This document shows, piece after piece, positions 2,870-63,442 of a DNA stretch of 64,000 nucleotides. Below the pieces are notes generated by a model, which saw only the letters and a program-made list of their open reading frames with translations, had not been told where the DNA came from and did no database searches. The DNA is from Escherichia coli 042 (GTDB lineage: Bacteria > Pseudomonadota > Gammaproteobacteria > Enterobacterales > Enterobacteriaceae), in the NCBI RefSeq assembly GCF_000027125.1, contig NC_017626.1; one strand, written 5' to 3'. The translations under genes were made by a program, and so were the position numbers. Position 1 is the first letter of the stretch. Each line of letters starts with the position of its first letter.

Positions 2870-3210
2870 CGACTTTTACCAGAGAGCAGTTAATAGCTCA
2901 CGCAGAGGAGACTATTGAAGCACAGAGACTGTGCATACCGGGCACAATCGACCATGACATCATCCGCACATATAAGATGGATATTGCTGTTCTGGAAATC
3001 GCACTGGTATCGCTGGCAGCAGAGCCAGCCGGTAAATTGCATGAATACAAACCAGTGGGATATCAGCGTCTGGTCGATGAGTTAACCATGCTGGTAAAGC
3101 AGTTAACCTGGCAACTGAGGAAAGCGAAGCCAGACTGCAAATTACCGGATAAGGCGATGAGTTATCTGGAGCGGAACGGACTGATAAGCGTGGAGGATAT
3201 TTTACGATGA
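2866..3210 (+). CDS. Hypothetical phage protein
   Basis: 114-aa ORF, start overlaps upstream stop. Confidence 0.45.
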
Positions 3211-3501
3211 CCTGGCCTGAAGCATTAACAACGGTAGGAATTGCGATGGCGGTGGCGCTGGTGGTGTATTCGATTTGCCGCTGGGGATAAAAACGGTTTG
3301 CGGGAAAAGGAGAGTTAAGTAGAATTGCAGCGGGTGCTTGAGGCTATCTGTCTCAGGCATGAACACCAAAAGGCAGATAGAGAAAAGCCCCAGTTAACAT
3401 TACGCGTCCGGCAAGACGCTTAACATTAATCTGAGGCCATATCTATGCTCTACACACGTAGGTTAGCCTCTTACGTGCCGAAAGGCAAGGAGAAGCAGGC
3501 T

Positions 3502-3657
3502 ATGAAGCAGCAAAAGGCGATGCTAATCGCCCTGATCGTCATCTGTTTAACCGTCATTGTGACGGCACTGGTAACGAGGAAAGACCTCTGCGAGGTACGA
3601 ATCCGAACCGGCCAGACGGAGGTCGCTGTCTTCACAGCTTACGAACCTGAGGAGTAA
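3502..3657 (+). CDS. hokD: Hok/Gef-family type I toxin (HokD/RelF-like)
   Basis: 51-aa product MKQQKAMLIALIVICLTVIVTALVTRKDLCEVRIRTGQTEVAVFTAYEPEE matches my recollection of the Hok family (TM helix, conserved Cys, C-terminal AYE); in-frame upstream extension from 3445; hairpins downstream. Confidence 0.8.
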   Translation: MKQQKAMLIALIVICLTVIVTALVTRKDLCEVRIRTGQTEVAVFTAYEPEE

Positions 3658-3727
3658 GAGACCCGGCGGGGGAGTAATCTCCCGCCACCTCTGATGTGCC
3701 AGGCATCCTCAACGCACCCGCACTTAA

Positions 3728-3746
3728 CCCGCTTCGGCGGGTTTTT
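3728..3746 (+). terminator. Rho-independent terminator hairpin (copy 1 of a 20-bp repeat)
   Basis: cccgcttcggcggg followed by T-run; identical sequence recurs at 5563-5582. Confidence 0.6.
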
Positions 3747-3822
3747 GCATTAGTCTGGTTGACAAAAATAGAAAAATGCGAAAATATGTGGTTTACGAAT
3801 TCTAAAAAAAGCGAAACTTGAA

Positions 3823-4473
3823 ATGAATGAAAATCAGTTAGCTCCTTGTTGGGAATTTCAACCTTATCTTGCTGAAAACTATGTTCGCCACTTGTTGGCG
3901 GAGATCGCTAACGTACTTGAGCAGCTGTACTATCATAAGCACGCATTAGACAGCAACTGGTCTGAAGGTGTAAGGGCTTATGATTGGGTCAGAAATCATC
4001 TTATTCAAAATGAAGATGCAATTCCTGGCCTTGAGATGATTTCCAAGGGGTTGGACTATGTAGTTGCTTTAAATAAAGTTCCGCTACAATTTACCAAAGA
4101 TTGCATTAATAACCCCAAAAAGAAACATCGTCTGCGTCGAAATAAAGTAGAGTATGAGCAGCTCTCATTGTTTGGTGATGTTGAGGCTGAGCAAGATATT
4201 ACATGGCGAGTCATAGCTGAGCCTTTTTTATCCGAAGAGGGCGATGGTGAATTAGAGTCCACACTGCCTCGTTGGGAGGTAGCTCTTGTTGGATTTAATA
4301 CTTATGGTGCTCAGATTAGTATAGTTTCTCATCAATCTACAGCATCGATGCCGCTTATGCCTCTTGATTATAACACACTCCCTGACGAAGCGGAGATTAA
4401 TAAGGTGCCTCTTCGTCGGCGTACGAAGGATAAAGATTTGGATGTGAGCAGTGATGGAACATCAGGTGAATAA
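3823..4473 (+). CDS. Unknown 216-aa protein, upstream partner of HTH-peptidase (candidate toxin/effector)
   Basis: AT-rich ORF after TTGACA-containing promoter-like region; overlaps downstream gene by 23 nt; no family recognised by eye. Confidence 0.6.
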   Translation: MNENQLAPCWEFQPYLAENYVRHLLAEIANVLEQLYYHKHALDSNWSEGVRAYDWVRNHLIQNEDAIPGLEMISKGLDYVVALNKVPLQFTKDCINNPKKKHRLRRNKVEYEQLSLFGDVEAEQDITWRVIAEPFLSEEGDGELESTLPRWEVALVGFNTYGAQISIVSHQSTASMPLMPLDYNTLPDEAEINKVPLRRRTKDKDLDVSSDGTSGE

Positions 4474-5557
4474 CTTCACTGAGTATCGGGGTGATAAGCT
4501 CAAACTAGCGAGAATGGCTGTTGGGCTTTCTTGTGAAGAGTTAGCCGAAAAAATTGGCAAGACAAAGCAATTCGTTAGCAAACTGGAGAAGGGGTGCAGG
4601 CCATCGGAGCAATGTCTTGAGTTAATATCTTCAGCGCTTATGATTAAGTCCAGTTTTCTTTTTACTGAACGAAAATACGCTCTGGAAAGTGATGTCTGCC
4701 ATTTTCGGAGTAAGAAGTCCAGGACTCAAACGCTGACTAATAGTGTATTGGCCAGGGCTGAGATTCTTAATATTATAATTTCTGCTGTTGAAGGTGAAAT
4801 CGAATTTCCTGACGTTAACATACCGGAGCACCCAGGGGCTGAATTACTTACTCCGAATGATATTGAGCGAGTGGCAGAAGATTGTCGCCGTGCCTGGAAT
4901 TTAGGTCTTGGCCCTATATCATCAATGGTTAAATTGGCGGAGAGTTTAGGGGTAATCGTTGCGCATGTTACGGGAGTCGATGATCGTGTTGATGCTTTTA
5001 CTGTTCACAATAACAGGCCTGTTATCATCAGGAACAATGTTAAAAAAAGCATATGTAGATTTCGCTCTGATTTAGGTCATGAATTAGGGCATTTAGTAAT
5101 GCATGAGGGCATAACGACAGGTGATAAACTTACGGAATCACAAGCCGATCACTTTTCGAGCGCCTTATTAGTTCCCAGGTTATCTTTCATTAAAGAATTT
5201 CCACGAATACGAGGTAAGCAATTCGACTGGAATGCTCTGGTTGAATTTAAACTTAGATGGAAAATCAGCCTTAAAATGTGTATTTATCGAGCCAGCGCAT
5301 TAGGCTTATTGACCCAGGAACAGGCAAGAACTGGCTATATGCATCTTAATTCCAGAGGGTATACGAGAGTTGAACCTGGTGATGAACTTTTGCGCCCTGA
5401 AGAACCCGGCATGCTGGCCGAGGCGATTGAAATGCTGGATGATGCAACCTGGCTAAGAATTCTTATGAAAACTGGCTTGAGCCAAGATTTAATTCGTGAG
5501 TTGTTCTCCATCAACAGACCTATTACAAATCCAAGAAATATTTTCCAGATTGTTTGA
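4451..5557 (+). CDS. XRE-family HTH fused to ImmA/IrrE-type (HEXXH) zinc metallopeptidase
   Basis: N-terminal HTH (LARMAVGLSCEELAEKIGKTKQFVSKLEKG); C-terminal HELGHLVMHE motif typical of ImmA/IrrE (COG2856/M78-like) peptidases. Confidence 0.7.
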   Translation: MMEHQVNNFTEYRGDKLKLARMAVGLSCEELAEKIGKTKQFVSKLEKGCRPSEQCLELISSALMIKSSFLFTERKYALESDVCHFRSKKSRTQTLTNSVLARAEILNIIISAVEGEIEFPDVNIPEHPGAELLTPNDIERVAEDCRRAWNLGLGPISSMVKLAESLGVIVAHVTGVDDRVDAFTVHNNRPVIIRNNVKKSICRFRSDLGHELGHLVMHEGITTGDKLTESQADHFSSALLVPRLSFIKEFPRIRGKQFDWNALVEFKLRWKISLKMCIYRASALGLLTQEQARTGYMHLNSRGYTRVEPGDELLRPEEPGMLAEAIEMLDDATWLRILMKTGLSQDLIRELFSINRPITNPRNIFQIV

Positions 5558-10146: not shown

Positions 10147-10222
10147 GGCCCTTTAGCTCAGTGGTGAGAGCGAGCGACTCATAATCGCCAGGTCGCTGGT
10201 TCAAATCCAGCAAGGGCCACCA
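10147..10222 (+). tRNA. ileZ: tRNA with CAT anticodon, Ile2 (lysidine)-type or Met
   Basis: 76-nt cloverleaf: acceptor ggccctt/aagggcc, T-arm gctgg-ttcaaat-ccagc, anticodon loop ctCATaa, 3' CCA; close to recalled E. coli tRNA-Ile2. Confidence 0.85.
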
Positions 10223-10229
10223 TCACATA

Positions 10230-10306
10230 CCGCCATTAGCTCATCAGGAAAGAGCGCCAGCCTTCGAAGCTGGTTGCGCGGAGTTCGGGTCCCCGAAGGC
10301 GGTCCA
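10230..10306 (+). tRNA. tRNA-Arg (anticodon TCG as read)
   Basis: 77-nt cloverleaf: anticodon stem ccagc/gctgg with loop ctTCGaa, 3' CCA; one mismatch each in acceptor and T stems. Confidence 0.6.
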
Positions 10307-10319
10307 TTATCTGTATCCT

Positions 10320-10396
10320 GCGTTGTTAGCTCAGCCGGACAGAGCAATTGCCTTCTAAGCAATCGGTCACTGGTTCGAATCCAGTACAACGCGCCA
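10320..10396 (+). tRNA. tRNA-Arg (anticodon TCT)
   Basis: 77-nt cloverleaf: acceptor gcgttgt/acaacgc, T-arm actgg-ttcgaat-ccagt, anticodon loop ctTCTaa, 3' CCA. Confidence 0.85.
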
Positions 10397-10440
10397 CACT
10401 TATTTTCCCTGGCTCGCTTTTGCGGGCTTTTTTTTAAATG

Positions 10441-10656
10441 TCTCACAATTCAGGCGGTTGACTGTTGTCTGGTTTGCGGGGAGTTTGTTAAAAGAAACTG
10501 GCATGGTGAATCCCCCTGTGCGGAGGGGCAATCAGCGAGTAGGTATATGGGATAATCGCGGATTCAGGTGCTGGTACTGAATTCACCGGGAGGCACCCGG
10601 CACCATGCAATGGCACATAGCGCCACTCTCCAGCCCCTCTCCGGAGGGGCTTTTCT
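10441..10656 (+). repeat. Structured repeat unit 1 (sRNA-like: promoter-like box, hairpins, terminator)
   Basis: Shares with unit 2 the blocks tcacaattcag, ttgac, ttgttaaaa, gcatggtgaatccccctg.gcggagggg, gtataat/ggataat, caccgggaggcacccggcaccatg and terminator gcccctctccggaggggc+T-run. Confidence 0.55.
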
Positions 10657-10908
10657 GTGCCGGATACATCACAGTTTCTGGAACCTTAGGTACTACAGTA
10701 TCAGTCAGGGTGCTATATTTTCAGATGTGATGAAAGCCTGTCAGCAGGCAGGGCGTATCGGAAATGACCCAGTAGAGAAAACGTTGACTCAGATACCGGT
10801 GCTGAGTTACCGGGAAACCGGCATCACATGACCGCTATCCTTCCAGGCCCATCCGCTCCGGTGGGCCTTTTTACTGCAGAAAACAGGTTCCCCGTTAAAT
10901 GCTATGTT

Positions 10909-11141
10909 GCTCACAATTCAGTAAGTTGACAGTTGCCTGTCAGACTGGGCATTTGTTAAAAAAATTTCGCATGGTGAATCCCCCTGAGCGGAGGGGCGAC
11001 TGGTGACGGTATAATCTCTGATTATCAAAACGAGAATGACGCGGGTTTAGTGGCACCGGACTGAACTCACCGGGAGGCACCCGGCACCATGTGCATGATG
11101 ATACAGATACGCGGCTTTAGCCCCTCTCCGGAGGGGCTTTC
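10909..11141 (+). repeat. Structured repeat unit 2 (sRNA-like)
   Basis: Second diverged copy of the same ~220-bp unit, with a perfect TATAAT at 11010-11015. Confidence 0.55.
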
Positions 11142-11371
11142 TTATGGACAAAAAAAGCCCGCGCTGGGAGACGCGGGCGGCAAGGAATAAACAATAAAAC
11201 GTGAAGTAATATTTCAGCTGGCGAATAATACCCCATAGTAATCACTCTGCGCAACTGCGCGGTCTTTTTCGAATTGCGGGCTGTAGTCTCCCTTCTGCCA
11301 TTGTCCTGTAACTTCCGGACTTCAGCCTGCTCCTTATCTGACTCACAACATTATCCCGCCCGGGAGGATTC

Positions 11372-39916: not shown

Positions 39917-40500
39917 TGGTATTCAGAATGAGTGAACAACCACGGACCATAACAATTTATAATCTGCTGGCCGGAACTAATGAATTTATTGGTGAAGGTG
40001 ATGCATATATTCCGCCTCATACAGGTCTGCCAGCAAACAGTACCGATATTGCACCGCCAGATATTCCGGCAGGCTTCGTGGCTGTTTTCAACAGTGATGA
40101 GGCATCGTGGCATCTCGTTGAAGATCATCGGGGTAAAACGGTTTATGACGTGGCTTCCGGCGACGCGTTATTTATTTCTGAACTCGGTCCGTTACCGGAA
40201 AATGTTACCTGGTTATCGCCGGAAGGGGAGTTTCAGAAGTGGAACGGCACAGCCTGGGTGAAGGATACGGAAGCAGAAAAACTGTTCCGGATCCGGGAGG
40301 CGGAAGAAACAAAAAACAACCTGATGCAGGTAGCCAGTGAGCATATTGCGCCGCTTCAGGATGCTGCAGATCTGGAAATTGCAACGGAGGAAGAAACCTC
40401 ATTGCTGGAAGCCTGGAAAAAGTATCGGGTGTTGCTGAACCGTGTTGATACATCAACTGCACCTGATATTGAGTGGCCTACGAACCCTGTCAGGGAGTAA
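39916..40500 (+). CDS. tfa: Tail fibre assembly protein
   Basis: 194 aa directly after stf with ATGA overlap. Confidence 0.8.
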
Positions 40501-50562: not shown

Positions 50563-50589
50563 AATTTTGTTCAAAAAAAGCCCGCTCAT
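50563..50589 (-). terminator. trp attenuator terminator
   Basis: agcccgcctaatgagcgggc plus U-run on the minus strand, between trpL and trpE. Confidence 0.85.
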
Positions 50590-50641
50590 TAGGCGGGCTG
50601 GGTATCTGATTGCTTTACGCATGGTGAATACACTGCCCGTT

Positions 50642-50686
50642 TCAGGAAGTGCGCCACCAACCTTTCAGTACGAAAATTGCTTTCAT
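50642..50686 (-). CDS. trpL: trp operon leader peptide
   Basis: Reverse complement reads atgaaagcaattttcgtactgaaaggttggtggcgcacttcctga = [14 protein letters not shown] with tandem Trp codons. Confidence 0.95.
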
Positions 50687-63070: not shown

Positions 63071-63442
63071 TTATCATCATTCTTATTACCCATTTTTAAT
63101 CAATTAAAGGGCTTTTAATACACCGCAGCAATAACAGGTTGAGTTATCTCAACACAAAGTAATAACCGTTAAGGGTGTAGCCTATGATCAACACAAATAT
63201 GAAATATTGGTCCTGGATGGGCGCATTTTCTCTGTCGATGCTCTTCTGGGCCGAACTCCTCTGGATCATTACTCACTGATCCCTGACCCCGCTGCGGCGG
63301 GGTTTTCATTTGCTTTGCCACAAGGTTTCTCCTCTTTTATCAATTTGGGTTGTTATCAAATCGTTACGCGATGTTTGTGTTATCTTTAATATTCACCCTG
63401 AAGAGAATCAGGGCTTCGCAACCCTGTCATTAAGGAGGAGCT

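What the first reader, a model, noticed from the sequence alone, without database searches (positions are those of the whole stretch)
3290..3700. hok-type type I toxin locus immediately upstream of the cassette
The 51-aa product of 3502..3657 matches the Hok/Gef family (HokD/RelF-like) as I recall it. The reading frame extends upstream in-frame to 3445, and there are inverted repeats in the leader (ctatctg...cagatag at about 3346-3390) and hairpins after the stop, consistent with hok mRNA fold-back elements or an antisense RNA. No relBE-like genes are upstream, unlike the Qin relB-relE-hokD arrangement.
Basis: partly seen in the sequence, partly recalled or inferred. Interest (0 to 1): 0.45.

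Follow-up and report, generated by a model that had tools for sequence, protein, structure and literature searches.

The report
Complete hok/mok/sok toxin-antitoxin locus (hokD-type)
This is an ordinary, already well-known hok/sok "host-killing" toxin–antisense-RNA module carried by an E. coli lambdoid prophage; it is intact here, whereas the K-12 copy (hokD/relF) has lost its upstream half.

Summary
Window 3297-3748 holds a complete hok/mok/sok type I toxin-antitoxin locus.

- **Toxin:** the 51-aa Hok (3502-3657) matches Pfam HOK_GEF at E=3.5e-23 and is amino-acid identical to K-12 HokD/RelF.
- **mok:** the in-frame upstream extension from 3445 is the mok reading frame.
- **Leader:** it matches Rfam RF01794 at 117 bits.
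- **Long-range pairing:** the 5' end (tac, 3332-3343) pairs with a 3' element (fbi, 3707-3719) just before an intrinsic terminator.
- **Antisense RNA:** a 71-nt Sok is placed at 3453->3383 on the minus strand by homology. Its promoter (TTGCCT-17-TAACCT) is base-identical to the sokW promoter of phage 933W/Sp5, which was validated experimentally.

The locus is 93% identical to hokW-mokW-sokW, a demonstrated toxin-antitoxin system. K-12 hokD shares only the part from the hok Shine-Dalgarno sequence onwards, where relBE has replaced the regulatory half. That explains why relBE is absent here.

The unit occurs in about 4,020 of 5,426 complete E. coli genomes. The downstream "cassette" is a RosmerTA defence system and is an independent module.

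Verdict: already known, low interest.

The parts
3297..3325 (+). Putative hok mRNA promoter: -35 TTTGCG (3297-3302), 17-nt spacer, -10 TAGAAT (3320-3325).
   Evidence: Read from the sequence. The -10 lies 6 nt upstream of the conserved GGGTGC/GGCGC 5' end, as TATAAT (hokC), TATGAT (R1-type) and TATAAT (Atlantibacter plasmid) do in the leaders printed. It was not picked up by the consensus scan, so the assignment rests on positional homology.
3332..3748 (+). Full-length hok mRNA unit (about 415 nt), from the predicted start to the terminator.
   Evidence: Rfam RF01794 model position 1 aligns at 3332. The MFE is -169.3 kcal/mol, z=-6.45. This interval is the block shared with most other E. coli genomes (query 1-414/416).
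3332..3343 (+). tac (translational activator) element at the 5' end, GGGTGCTTGAGG.
   Evidence: Pairs with 3708-3719 in both the MFE and centroid structures. Duplex energy is -21.5 kcal/mol, reached by 0 of 500 shuffles of the 3' UTR.
3334..3360 (+). Local 5' hairpin (GTGCTTGAGGC/GTCTCAGGCAT) that is mutually exclusive with tac-fbi pairing.
   Evidence: -16.9 kcal/mol, z=-5.26. It forms in the MFE structure once the last 42 nt are removed. Both window-versus-933W substitutions in it (3351, 3355) keep pairing (alignment).
3344..3380 (+).
   Evidence: Paired in the full-length MFE and in the Rfam consensus structure.
3383..3453 (-). Sok-type antisense RNA gene (71 nt). Its 5' tail overlaps the mok start codon by 9 nt. 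A long hairpin is followed by CUUUU.
   Evidence: The coordinates of the annotated sokW of phage 933W were transferred through alignment A1. The offset to the mok ATG (+8) is the same as for RefSeq sokC/mokC in K-12. The fold is -30.7 kcal/mol, z=-4.28. sokW RNA was detected by Northern blot in PMC8621323.
3460..3488 (-). Sok promoter: -35 TTGCCT (3488->3483), 17-nt spacer, -10 TAACCT (3465->3460).
   Evidence: The sequence over 3458-3522 is identical to 933W. Takada et al. abolished sokW function by changing this TAGGTTA to CCGGCTC (primers YO-421/YO-422). It is parallel to R1-type TTGCGC-17-TATCCT (leader). It falls below the threshold of the consensus scan.
3445..3657 (+). mok (modulator of killing) ORF, 70 aa, in frame with hok. 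Shine-Dalgarno GAGG at 3433-3436.
   Evidence: Same layout as the annotated mokW and mokC. PHROG 251 'MokW-like host killing', E=7.8e-33.
3502..3657 (+). hok toxin gene, 51 aa. Shine-Dalgarno GGAG at 3489-3492.
   Evidence: Pfam PF01848, E=3.5e-23. Identical to K-12 HokD. PGAP names it hokD in identical genomes. Against hokW, the four differences in codons 1-44 are all synonymous.
3640..3643 (+). TACG motif at Tyr47, the TadA A-to-I editing site (Tyr->Cys) reported for K-12 hokD.
   Evidence: The sequence is identical to K-12 hokD here. Editing of hokD at this Tyr is reported in PMC5630033 and PMC12214031. A local hairpin was not supported by folding.
3665..3686 (+). GC-rich hairpin just after the stop codon (GGCGGGGGA/TCTCCCGCC).
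   Evidence: An equivalent hairpin follows the stop in the R1-type, hokB and plasmid loci (3' UTRs printed).
3707..3719 (+). fbi (fold-back inhibition) element, CCTCAACGCACCC.
   Evidence: Complement of tac with one bulged C. Retained in K-12 hokD although its partner is deleted there. R1-type and Atlantibacter loci have a different tac (GGCGCTT...) matched by a different fbi (...AAGCGCC), a change on both sides.
3726..3748 (+). Intrinsic terminator (AACCCGC ttcg GCGGGTT, then a T-run), the right-hand boundary of the module.
   Evidence: Similarity to K-12, 689R5 and pPE4 ends within a few bases of the T-run. Similarity to 933W ends just before the hairpin.

Best explanation
Window 3297-3748 is an intact hok/mok/sok type I toxin-antitoxin locus of the hokD/hokW lineage. 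It sits in the early-right region of a Qin-like lambdoid prophage of E. coli.

Proposed mechanism. The sequence anatomy is shown here; the dynamics are inferred from the R1 hok/sok and hokW-sokW paradigms.

1. A weak promoter makes a stable mRNA of about 415 nt (3332->~3746).
2. Its 5' tac element is clamped to the 3' fbi element, so the full-length RNA is neither translated nor bound by Sok.
3. Slow 3' trimming removes the terminator and fbi (about 40 nt). The 5' end then snaps into its local hairpin and the leader refolds.
4. After refolding, mok can be translated, and hok translation is coupled to mok.
5. A short-lived 71-nt Sok RNA is made convergently from TTGCCT-17-TAACCT (3453->3383). 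It pairs across the mok start region, blocks mok and hence hok translation, and marks the duplex for RNase III.
6. When Sok synthesis stops, Sok decays. Hok is then made, inserts into the inner membrane and collapses membrane potential.

Most likely role here, by analogy with hokW in Sp5: Hok is produced on prophage induction and helps lysis and phage release. Prophage stabilisation and abortive infection are the alternatives.
For: - **Toxin:** Pfam HOK_GEF, E=3.5e-23. Identical to K-12 HokD, which is used as a toxic control in bioRxiv 10.1101/2025.08.07.668861.
- **Leader:** Rfam RF01794, 117 bits against a gathering score of 59.
- **mok layout:** the same as mokW and mokC.
- **tac-fbi:** -21.5 kcal/mol, 0/500 shuffles. 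Present in the MFE and centroid structures. The pair differs on both sides in R1-type loci.
- **Alternative 5' hairpin:** z=-5.3, and it forms in the truncated RNA.
- **Sok:** the position, fold and promoter are identical to sokW. The sokW -10 was validated by mutation, the RNA was seen on Northern blots, and antitoxin activity was shown (PMC8621323).
- **Similarity:** 93% nucleotide identity to hokW-mokW-sokW across 3207-3729.
- **Selection:** only synonymous changes in Hok codons 1-44 against hokW.
- **Distribution:** 100% identical copies in at least 25 complete genomes. The unit is in 4,020 of 5,426 genomes.
Against: - No expression data exist for this particular copy.
- Neither promoter reaches the threshold of the consensus scan. 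Both are assigned by homology.
- Thermodynamic folding reproduces the tac-fbi and 5'-hairpin switch. It does not show a clear rise in accessibility of the mok Shine-Dalgarno or start after truncation.
- Native chromosomal hokA, hokB and hokC loci were reported unable to mediate post-segregational killing or rifampicin activation (Pedersen & Gerdes 1999, as summarised). A complete structure therefore does not guarantee a killing phenotype.
- hokW lies near attR in 933W and this copy lies between the replication genes and Q. The induction-linked trigger may not transfer.
Confidence: 0.88

Rival explanations
1. It is a silent Hok remnant, as K-12 hokD is thought to be: a toxin ORF without working regulation or expression.
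For: K-12 hokD, hokA, hokC and hokE are regarded as inactivated (PMC12214031 and PMC5630033). Both promoters are weak matches to consensus.
Against: The K-12 defect is a specific loss of everything upstream of the hok Shine-Dalgarno. All of that is present here: promoter position, tac, mok start, Sok gene and promoter. No IS element or frameshift is present. The synonymous-only substitutions in the toxin core and the preserved tac-fbi complementarity argue for ongoing selection.
Confidence: 0.05
2. The mechanism is the same, but the main role is prophage addiction (post-segregational killing) or abortive-infection defence against lytic phages, rather than help with lysis at induction.
For: R1 hok/sok stabilises plasmids and reduces T4 plating (cited in PMC8621323). 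hok genes are enriched about four-fold in prophages (bioRxiv 10.1101/2025.08.07.668861). The locus sits next to a RosmerTA defence system.
Against: The native chromosomal loci that were tested did not give post-segregational killing. The same preprint found no enrichment of hok near defence systems. The only direct data for this lineage (hokW) show a pro-phage role at induction.
Confidence: 0.35
3. hok/sok is a functional part of the downstream cassette (rmrT-rmrA), for example as a leader or regulator of a three-component system.
For: Only 75 nt separate the hok terminator from the rmrT ATG. 231 of the 236 genomes with this cassette have it joined to hok.
Against: An intrinsic terminator lies between them. 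The hok unit occurs in 4,020 genomes and only 231 have the cassette. DNA after the terminator is unrelated in K-12, 933W, 689R5 and pPE4. An 80%-identical Rosmer cassette in strain KL53 occupies the same prophage slot with no hok. 223 of the 237 records holding the cassette are >=99% identical to the window, consistent with one prophage lineage.
Confidence: 0.04

Closest known systems
hokW-mokW-sokW of Stx2 phages 933W / Sakai prophage 5 (Sp5)
   Same: 93% nucleotide identity over window 3207-3729, including the upstream 27-aa ORF, the promoter region, tac, the leader, the Sok gene and its promoter (identical), mok/hok and fbi. The 71-nt Sok and the in-frame 70-aa Mok are the same. It is an experimentally shown type I toxin-antitoxin system (PMC8621323).
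   Different: - The Hok C-terminus differs at 4 residues (FTAYEPEE here, FVDYESEK in hokW).
- The Mok N-terminus differs at 2 residues.
- Six bases differ in the Sok 5' tail / mok start region.
- 933W lacks the window's terminator hairpin.
- hokW lies near attR. This copy lies between the replication genes and Q.
E. coli K-12 hokD (relF) in cryptic prophage Qin
   Same: The Hok protein is identical. Nucleotide sequence is nearly identical from the hok Shine-Dalgarno (about 3488) through fbi and the terminator. The prophage slot is the same, upstream of the DUF968 (YdfU-type) and Q genes. The TACG editing site is the same.
   Different: K-12 has relB-relE abutting the hok Shine-Dalgarno. It lacks the hok promoter, tac, the leader hairpins, the mok start and the whole Sok gene. 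The window copy has them all and has no relBE.
hok/sok of plasmid R1 (paradigm)
   Same: The order of elements is the same: -10, then the 5' G-run tac, the leader hairpin, Sok antisense over the mok start, mok, hok, a post-stop hairpin, fbi and the terminator. The Sok promoter position is the same (TTGCGC-17-TATCCT against TTGCCT-17-TAACCT).
   Different: The Hok proteins are distant; hokW versus R1 Hok is 44% identical according to PMC8621323. The tac and fbi sequences differ. The Sok hairpin is longer here because of a 16-nt insertion relative to the Rfam consensus. The carrier is a prophage, not a plasmid.
hokC (gef)/mokC/sokC of E. coli K-12
   Same: The tac (GGGTGCTTGAGGC) is identical and the leader is very similar. 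mok is in frame with hok. The Sok 5' end is 8 nt past the A of the mok ATG.
   Different: The K-12 hokC 3' UTR does not resemble the window's. An IS186 copy is annotated about 20 nt beyond the hokC stop. The best tac-3' UTR duplex there is no better than many shuffles, 42/500. SokC is 59 nt against 71 nt here.

Membership tests
Hok/Gef toxin family (Pfam PF01848) | A peptide of about 50 aa matching the HOK_GEF profile end to end, with an N-terminal hydrophobic helix and a conserved Cys. | tested here: met
   E=3.5e-23, model positions 1-42 of 42. The sequence MKQQKAMLIALIVICLTVIVTALVTRKDLCEV... is identical to K-12 HokD.
Hok/Gef toxin family (Pfam PF01848) | Membrane-depolarising toxicity when expressed. 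| not testable with these tools
   The identical HokD protein and the near-identical HokW are reported toxic. That is literature evidence and was not tested here.
[quoted passage not shown] | Conserved hok mRNA leader (Rfam RF01794) above the gathering score. | tested here: met
   117.1 bits against a gathering score of 59, full model 1-157. The model aligns in the hok-sense orientation: its consensus ends in the hok Shine-Dalgarno and AUG. It therefore identifies the leader that encodes Sok on the opposite strand, not the antisense RNA itself.
[quoted passage not shown] | A mok ORF starting upstream of hok and overlapping it, with its own Shine-Dalgarno. | tested here: met
   ORF 3445-3657. 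GAGG lies 8 nt upstream of the ATG. The layout matches annotated mokW and mokC.
[quoted passage not shown] | A cis-encoded antisense Sok RNA with its own promoter and terminator hairpin, complementary to the mok translation-initiation region. | tested here: met
   Met at the sequence level. The promoter is identical to the mutationally validated sokW promoter. The hairpin plus U-run folds with z=-4.28. The offset to the mok ATG matches sokC. Transcription of this copy could not be tested.
[quoted passage not shown] | Long-range 5'-3' pairing (tac-fbi) that closes the full-length mRNA. | tested here: met
   3332-3343 pairs with 3707-3719 at -21.5 kcal/mol, reached by 0/500 shuffles. The pairing is in the MFE and centroid structures. 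A different but matching pair occurs in R1-type loci.
[quoted passage not shown] | 3' processing that triggers refolding to a translatable, Sok-binding form. | tested here: inconclusive
   Removing 3707-3748 switches the 5' end to the local hairpin 3334-3360 in silico. Predicted accessibility of the mok Shine-Dalgarno and AUG hardly changes. The processing itself is not testable here.
K-12 relB-relE-hokD (Qin) arrangement | relBE operon immediately upstream, with hok lacking its own leader and Sok. | tested here: not met
   Homology to K-12 starts only at about 3488. The upstream genes here are phage early genes. The window carries the unrearranged form of the same gene.
hokW-sokW of Stx phages | High nucleotide identity over the entire locus, including Sok and its promoter. 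| tested here: met
   93% mean column identity in alignment A1. The Sok promoter region is identical. 92.7% over query 8-530.

The most novel reading that the evidence does not exclude
In this prophage, hok is co-oriented with the early-right operon (replication genes -> hok -> Q). hokW in 933W is co-oriented with leftward early transcription once the genome has circularised. On induction, antiterminated early transcription reading through the locus could occlude the convergent Sok promoter. It could also make hok RNAs that lack a free tac 5' end. That would explain the RecA-dependent loss of Sok and the timed Hok production seen for Sp5. On this reading, prophage hok/sok loci would be induction-wired lysis timers rather than addiction modules. 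The conserved 27-aa membrane peptide ORF (3207-3290) that travels with the locus might be a further component.
Probability: 0.15. Interest if true: 0.4.

Novelty: already known. Interest (0 to 1): 0.1.

Why it matters
It matters little beyond correct annotation. PGAP labels only the 51-aa hokD CDS in the identical genomes. The mok ORF, the Sok RNA gene, tac, fbi and the promoters are not annotated there, so the record shows a lone toxin where a complete toxin-antitoxin system exists.

The comparison also shows that K-12 hokD is a 5'-truncated derivative of a widespread intact prophage locus. Strains such as ABU 83972, NCTC86 or BL21(DE3) are therefore better models than K-12 for hokD biology.

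The hok terminator marks the left edge of a variable cargo slot. That slot holds RosmerTA here, which is useful for mapping prophage defence hotspots.

Tried and rejected
- **Consensus promoter scan.** It found neither the hok nor the Sok promoter. Its only hit (3420-3449, + strand) is at chance level, 1 found against 0.8 expected. Promoters were therefore assigned by positional homology and by the published sokW mutagenesis.
- **Minus-strand terminator scan.** It did not report the Sok terminator, probably because the hairpin is long and bulged. Direct folding shows it.
- **Rfam 'sok' hit as evidence for the antisense gene.** Rejected as direct evidence, because the model aligns in the sense orientation.
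- **Other Rfam hits in the region.** ceN48, rsmX and isrK are far below their gathering scores and were dismissed.
- **Literature search for 'sokD'/'mokD'.** It returned only unrelated papers.
- **TadA-type hairpin around the TACG site.** Short-window folding does not support one.
- **Klebsiella plasmid hok (L009).** It has no recognisable hok-type leader in the 200 nt upstream, so it was not used for the tac-fbi comparison.
- **K-12 hokC, hokE and hokB.** They gave no clean fbi partner, so they were not used as evidence. For hokC and hokE an IS186 copy is annotated about 20 nt beyond the stop codon. For hokB my motif search found no tac.
- **Functional coupling of hok to the Rosmer cassette.** Considered and rejected.

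Full report
**What is in the sequence.** Window 3200-3800 is 100% identical to many complete E. coli chromosomes, including ABU 83972 and NCTC86. In those genomes NCBI's pipeline annotates 3502-3657 as hokD. The ABU 83972 annotation shows the surroundings as a lambdoid, Qin-like prophage. The order is a repressor/YdaS-YdaT region, replication genes, a run of small early genes, hokD, a two-gene cassette, a DUF968 gene, rusA and an antiterminator Q gene, all on the + strand.

**Checking the observation.**
- The 51-aa ORF at 3502-3657 matches Pfam HOK_GEF over the full model at E=3.5e-23.
- The frame is open back to the ATG at 3445.
- The leader repeat ctatctg/cagatag lies at 3344-3350 and 3374-3380, within a longer imperfect inverted repeat.
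- Two hairpins follow the stop: 3665-3686, and an intrinsic terminator at 3726-3743 plus a T-run.
- No relBE genes are upstream.

**Anatomy of the locus.** Rfam family RF01794 ('sok') matches 3332-3507 at 117 bits against a gathering score of 59. The match is on the + strand, and the model consensus ends in the hok Shine-Dalgarno and AUG. It therefore describes the hok mRNA leader in sense orientation, not the antisense RNA.

I compared the leader with K-12 hokC, an R1-type plasmid hok (my recalled R1 Hok sequence matched plasmid copies at 100%) and an Atlantibacter plasmid hok. All have the same order of parts. A -10 hexamer (TAGAAT at 3320-3325 here) lies six bases upstream of a G-rich 5' end (GGGTGCTTGAGG, 3332-3343).

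**The fold-back lock.** This 5' element (tac) is complementary, with one bulged C, to CCTCAACGCACCC at 3707-3719 (fbi), directly upstream of the terminator.
- The pairing appears in both the MFE and centroid folds of the 417-nt RNA (z=-6.45; partner list).
- The duplex energy is -21.5 kcal/mol, and none of 500 shuffles of the 3' UTR reached it.
- R1-type loci carry a different tac (GGCGCTT...) matched by a different fbi (...AAGCGCC), so the two sides change together.
- When the last 42 nt are removed in silico, the 5' end switches to a strong local hairpin at 3334-3360 (-16.9 kcal/mol, z=-5.3). This is the kind of alternative structure the Gerdes model of hok activation requires.
- The two substitutions that distinguish the window from phage 933W in this segment keep pairing in both alternative structures.

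**The antisense partner.** Phage 933W carries annotated hokW, mokW and sokW. The window is 93% identical to that locus from 3207 to 3729.
- Transferring the sokW coordinates through the alignment places Sok at 3453->3383 on the minus strand.
- Its 5' end lies 8 nt past the A of the mok ATG, the same offset as RefSeq sokC relative to mokC in K-12.
- The RNA folds into a long hairpin followed by CUUUU (z=-4.28).
- The promoter reads TTGCCT (3488->3483), a 17-nt spacer, then TAACCT (3465->3460). The whole stretch 3458-3522 is identical in 933W.
- Takada et al. (PMC8621323) detected sokW RNA by Northern blot and showed it counteracts HokW. They abolished that effect by changing this -10 region (TAGGTTA to CCGGCTC on the + strand; primers YO-421/YO-422).
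- The simple consensus scan finds neither this promoter nor the hok promoter. Both are assigned by homology and not by score.

**Relation to K-12 hokD.** The Hok protein is identical to K-12 HokD/RelF. Nucleotide homology to K-12 begins only at the hok Shine-Dalgarno (about 3488) and runs through fbi and the terminator. Upstream of that point K-12 has relE and relB. K-12 hokD thus lacks the promoter, tac, the leader, the mok start and Sok. This agrees with published statements that it was inactivated by rearrangement (PMC12214031). Both copies occupy the same prophage slot, upstream of the DUF968 (YdfU-type) and Q genes.

**Signs of selection, and distribution.** Against hokW, the four differences in Hok codons 1-44 are all synonymous. 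The amino-acid changes are confined to the last seven residues and to the Mok-specific N-terminus. The 417-nt unit is present at 80% coverage or more in 4,020 of 5,426 complete E. coli genomes, so this is a very common element. A recent survey reports hok enrichment in prophages (bioRxiv 10.1101/2025.08.07.668861).

**Surroundings.** The DNA after the terminator is unrelated in the window, K-12, 933W, phage 689R5 and pPE4. The terminator is therefore the right-hand edge of the module and the left edge of a variable cargo slot.
- Here the slot holds genes matching PADLOC RmrT (E=4.6e-25) and RmrA (E=6e-105), which together make a RosmerTA defence system.
- That cassette occurs in 236 genomes, and in 231 of them it is joined to hok. 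Nearly all copies are 99% identical or more, which points to one prophage lineage.
- An 80%-identical cassette sits in the same slot of another prophage without hok.
- The two modules are therefore independent.

**How it most likely works.** The sequence anatomy is shown here, and the dynamics are inferred from R1 hok/sok and hokW-sokW. A stable full-length hok mRNA is kept inert by tac-fbi pairing. 3' trimming releases it. An unstable Sok RNA then blocks mok translation, and with it the coupled hok translation, and directs RNase III cleavage. When Sok synthesis stops, Hok is made and depolarises the inner membrane.

The biological role is less certain. The only direct data for this lineage show Hok production on prophage induction and a two-fold gain in phage release. 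Addiction and abortive infection remain possible. Native chromosomal hokA, hokB and hokC loci that were tested did not give post-segregational killing.

**Verdict.** The feature is a known and very common kind of element, with a 93%-identical and experimentally characterised relative. Novelty is 'already known' and interest is low.

Noticed in passing
window 3823-5557: The 'cassette' just downstream of hok is a two-gene RosmerTA anti-phage system. The 216-aa product matches PADLOC RmrT (E=4.6e-25). The overlapping 368-aa HTH + ImmA/IrrE-type peptidase product matches RmrA (E=6e-105). It is present in 236 of 5,426 complete E. coli genomes. A perfect TTGACA lies at 3759-3764, between the hok terminator and rmrT.
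   Followed up: partly
window 3207-3290: A 27-aa hydrophobic ORF ([27 protein letters not shown]). Its ATG overlaps the stop of the upstream gene (ATGA). It is kept as a 27-codon ORF in 933W (6 substitutions) and in pPE4. It marks the left end of the block shared with Stx phages. It has no PHROG or PADLOC match and is not annotated in ABU 83972.
   Followed up: partly
window 3640-3643: Tyr47 of Hok is encoded by TAC followed by G. This is the TadA A-to-I editing motif, and the sequence here is identical to K-12 hokD, where low-level Tyr->Cys editing was reported (PMC5630033, PMC12214031). An intact, expressed copy such as this one would be a better place to ask whether editing tunes HokD toxicity.
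   Followed up: partly
window 3332-3507 (Rfam RF01794): The Rfam family named 'sok antitoxin' aligns on the hok-sense strand, and its consensus ends in the hok Shine-Dalgarno and AUG. A hit therefore marks the hok leader and gives the wrong strand for the Sok RNA.
   Followed up: yes
L012 (PP818812.1, 'Actinobacillus phage vB_Apl-pPE4'): The best phage-database match to this E. coli prophage segment (96.9% over 547 nt) is a record labelled as an Actinobacillus pleuropneumoniae phage. Its neighbouring genes are typical E. coli lambdoid early genes. The host assignment looks doubtful.
   Followed up: no
window 10147-11149, 40259-40457, 50572-50665, 63111-63313: Other Rfam hits in the window: three tRNAs (10147-10393), two STnc100 copies (10472-11149), IS009 (40259-40457), the trp operon leader on the minus strand (50572-50665) and STnc180 (63111-63313). 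The prophage therefore lies near the trp region of the chromosome.
   Followed up: no
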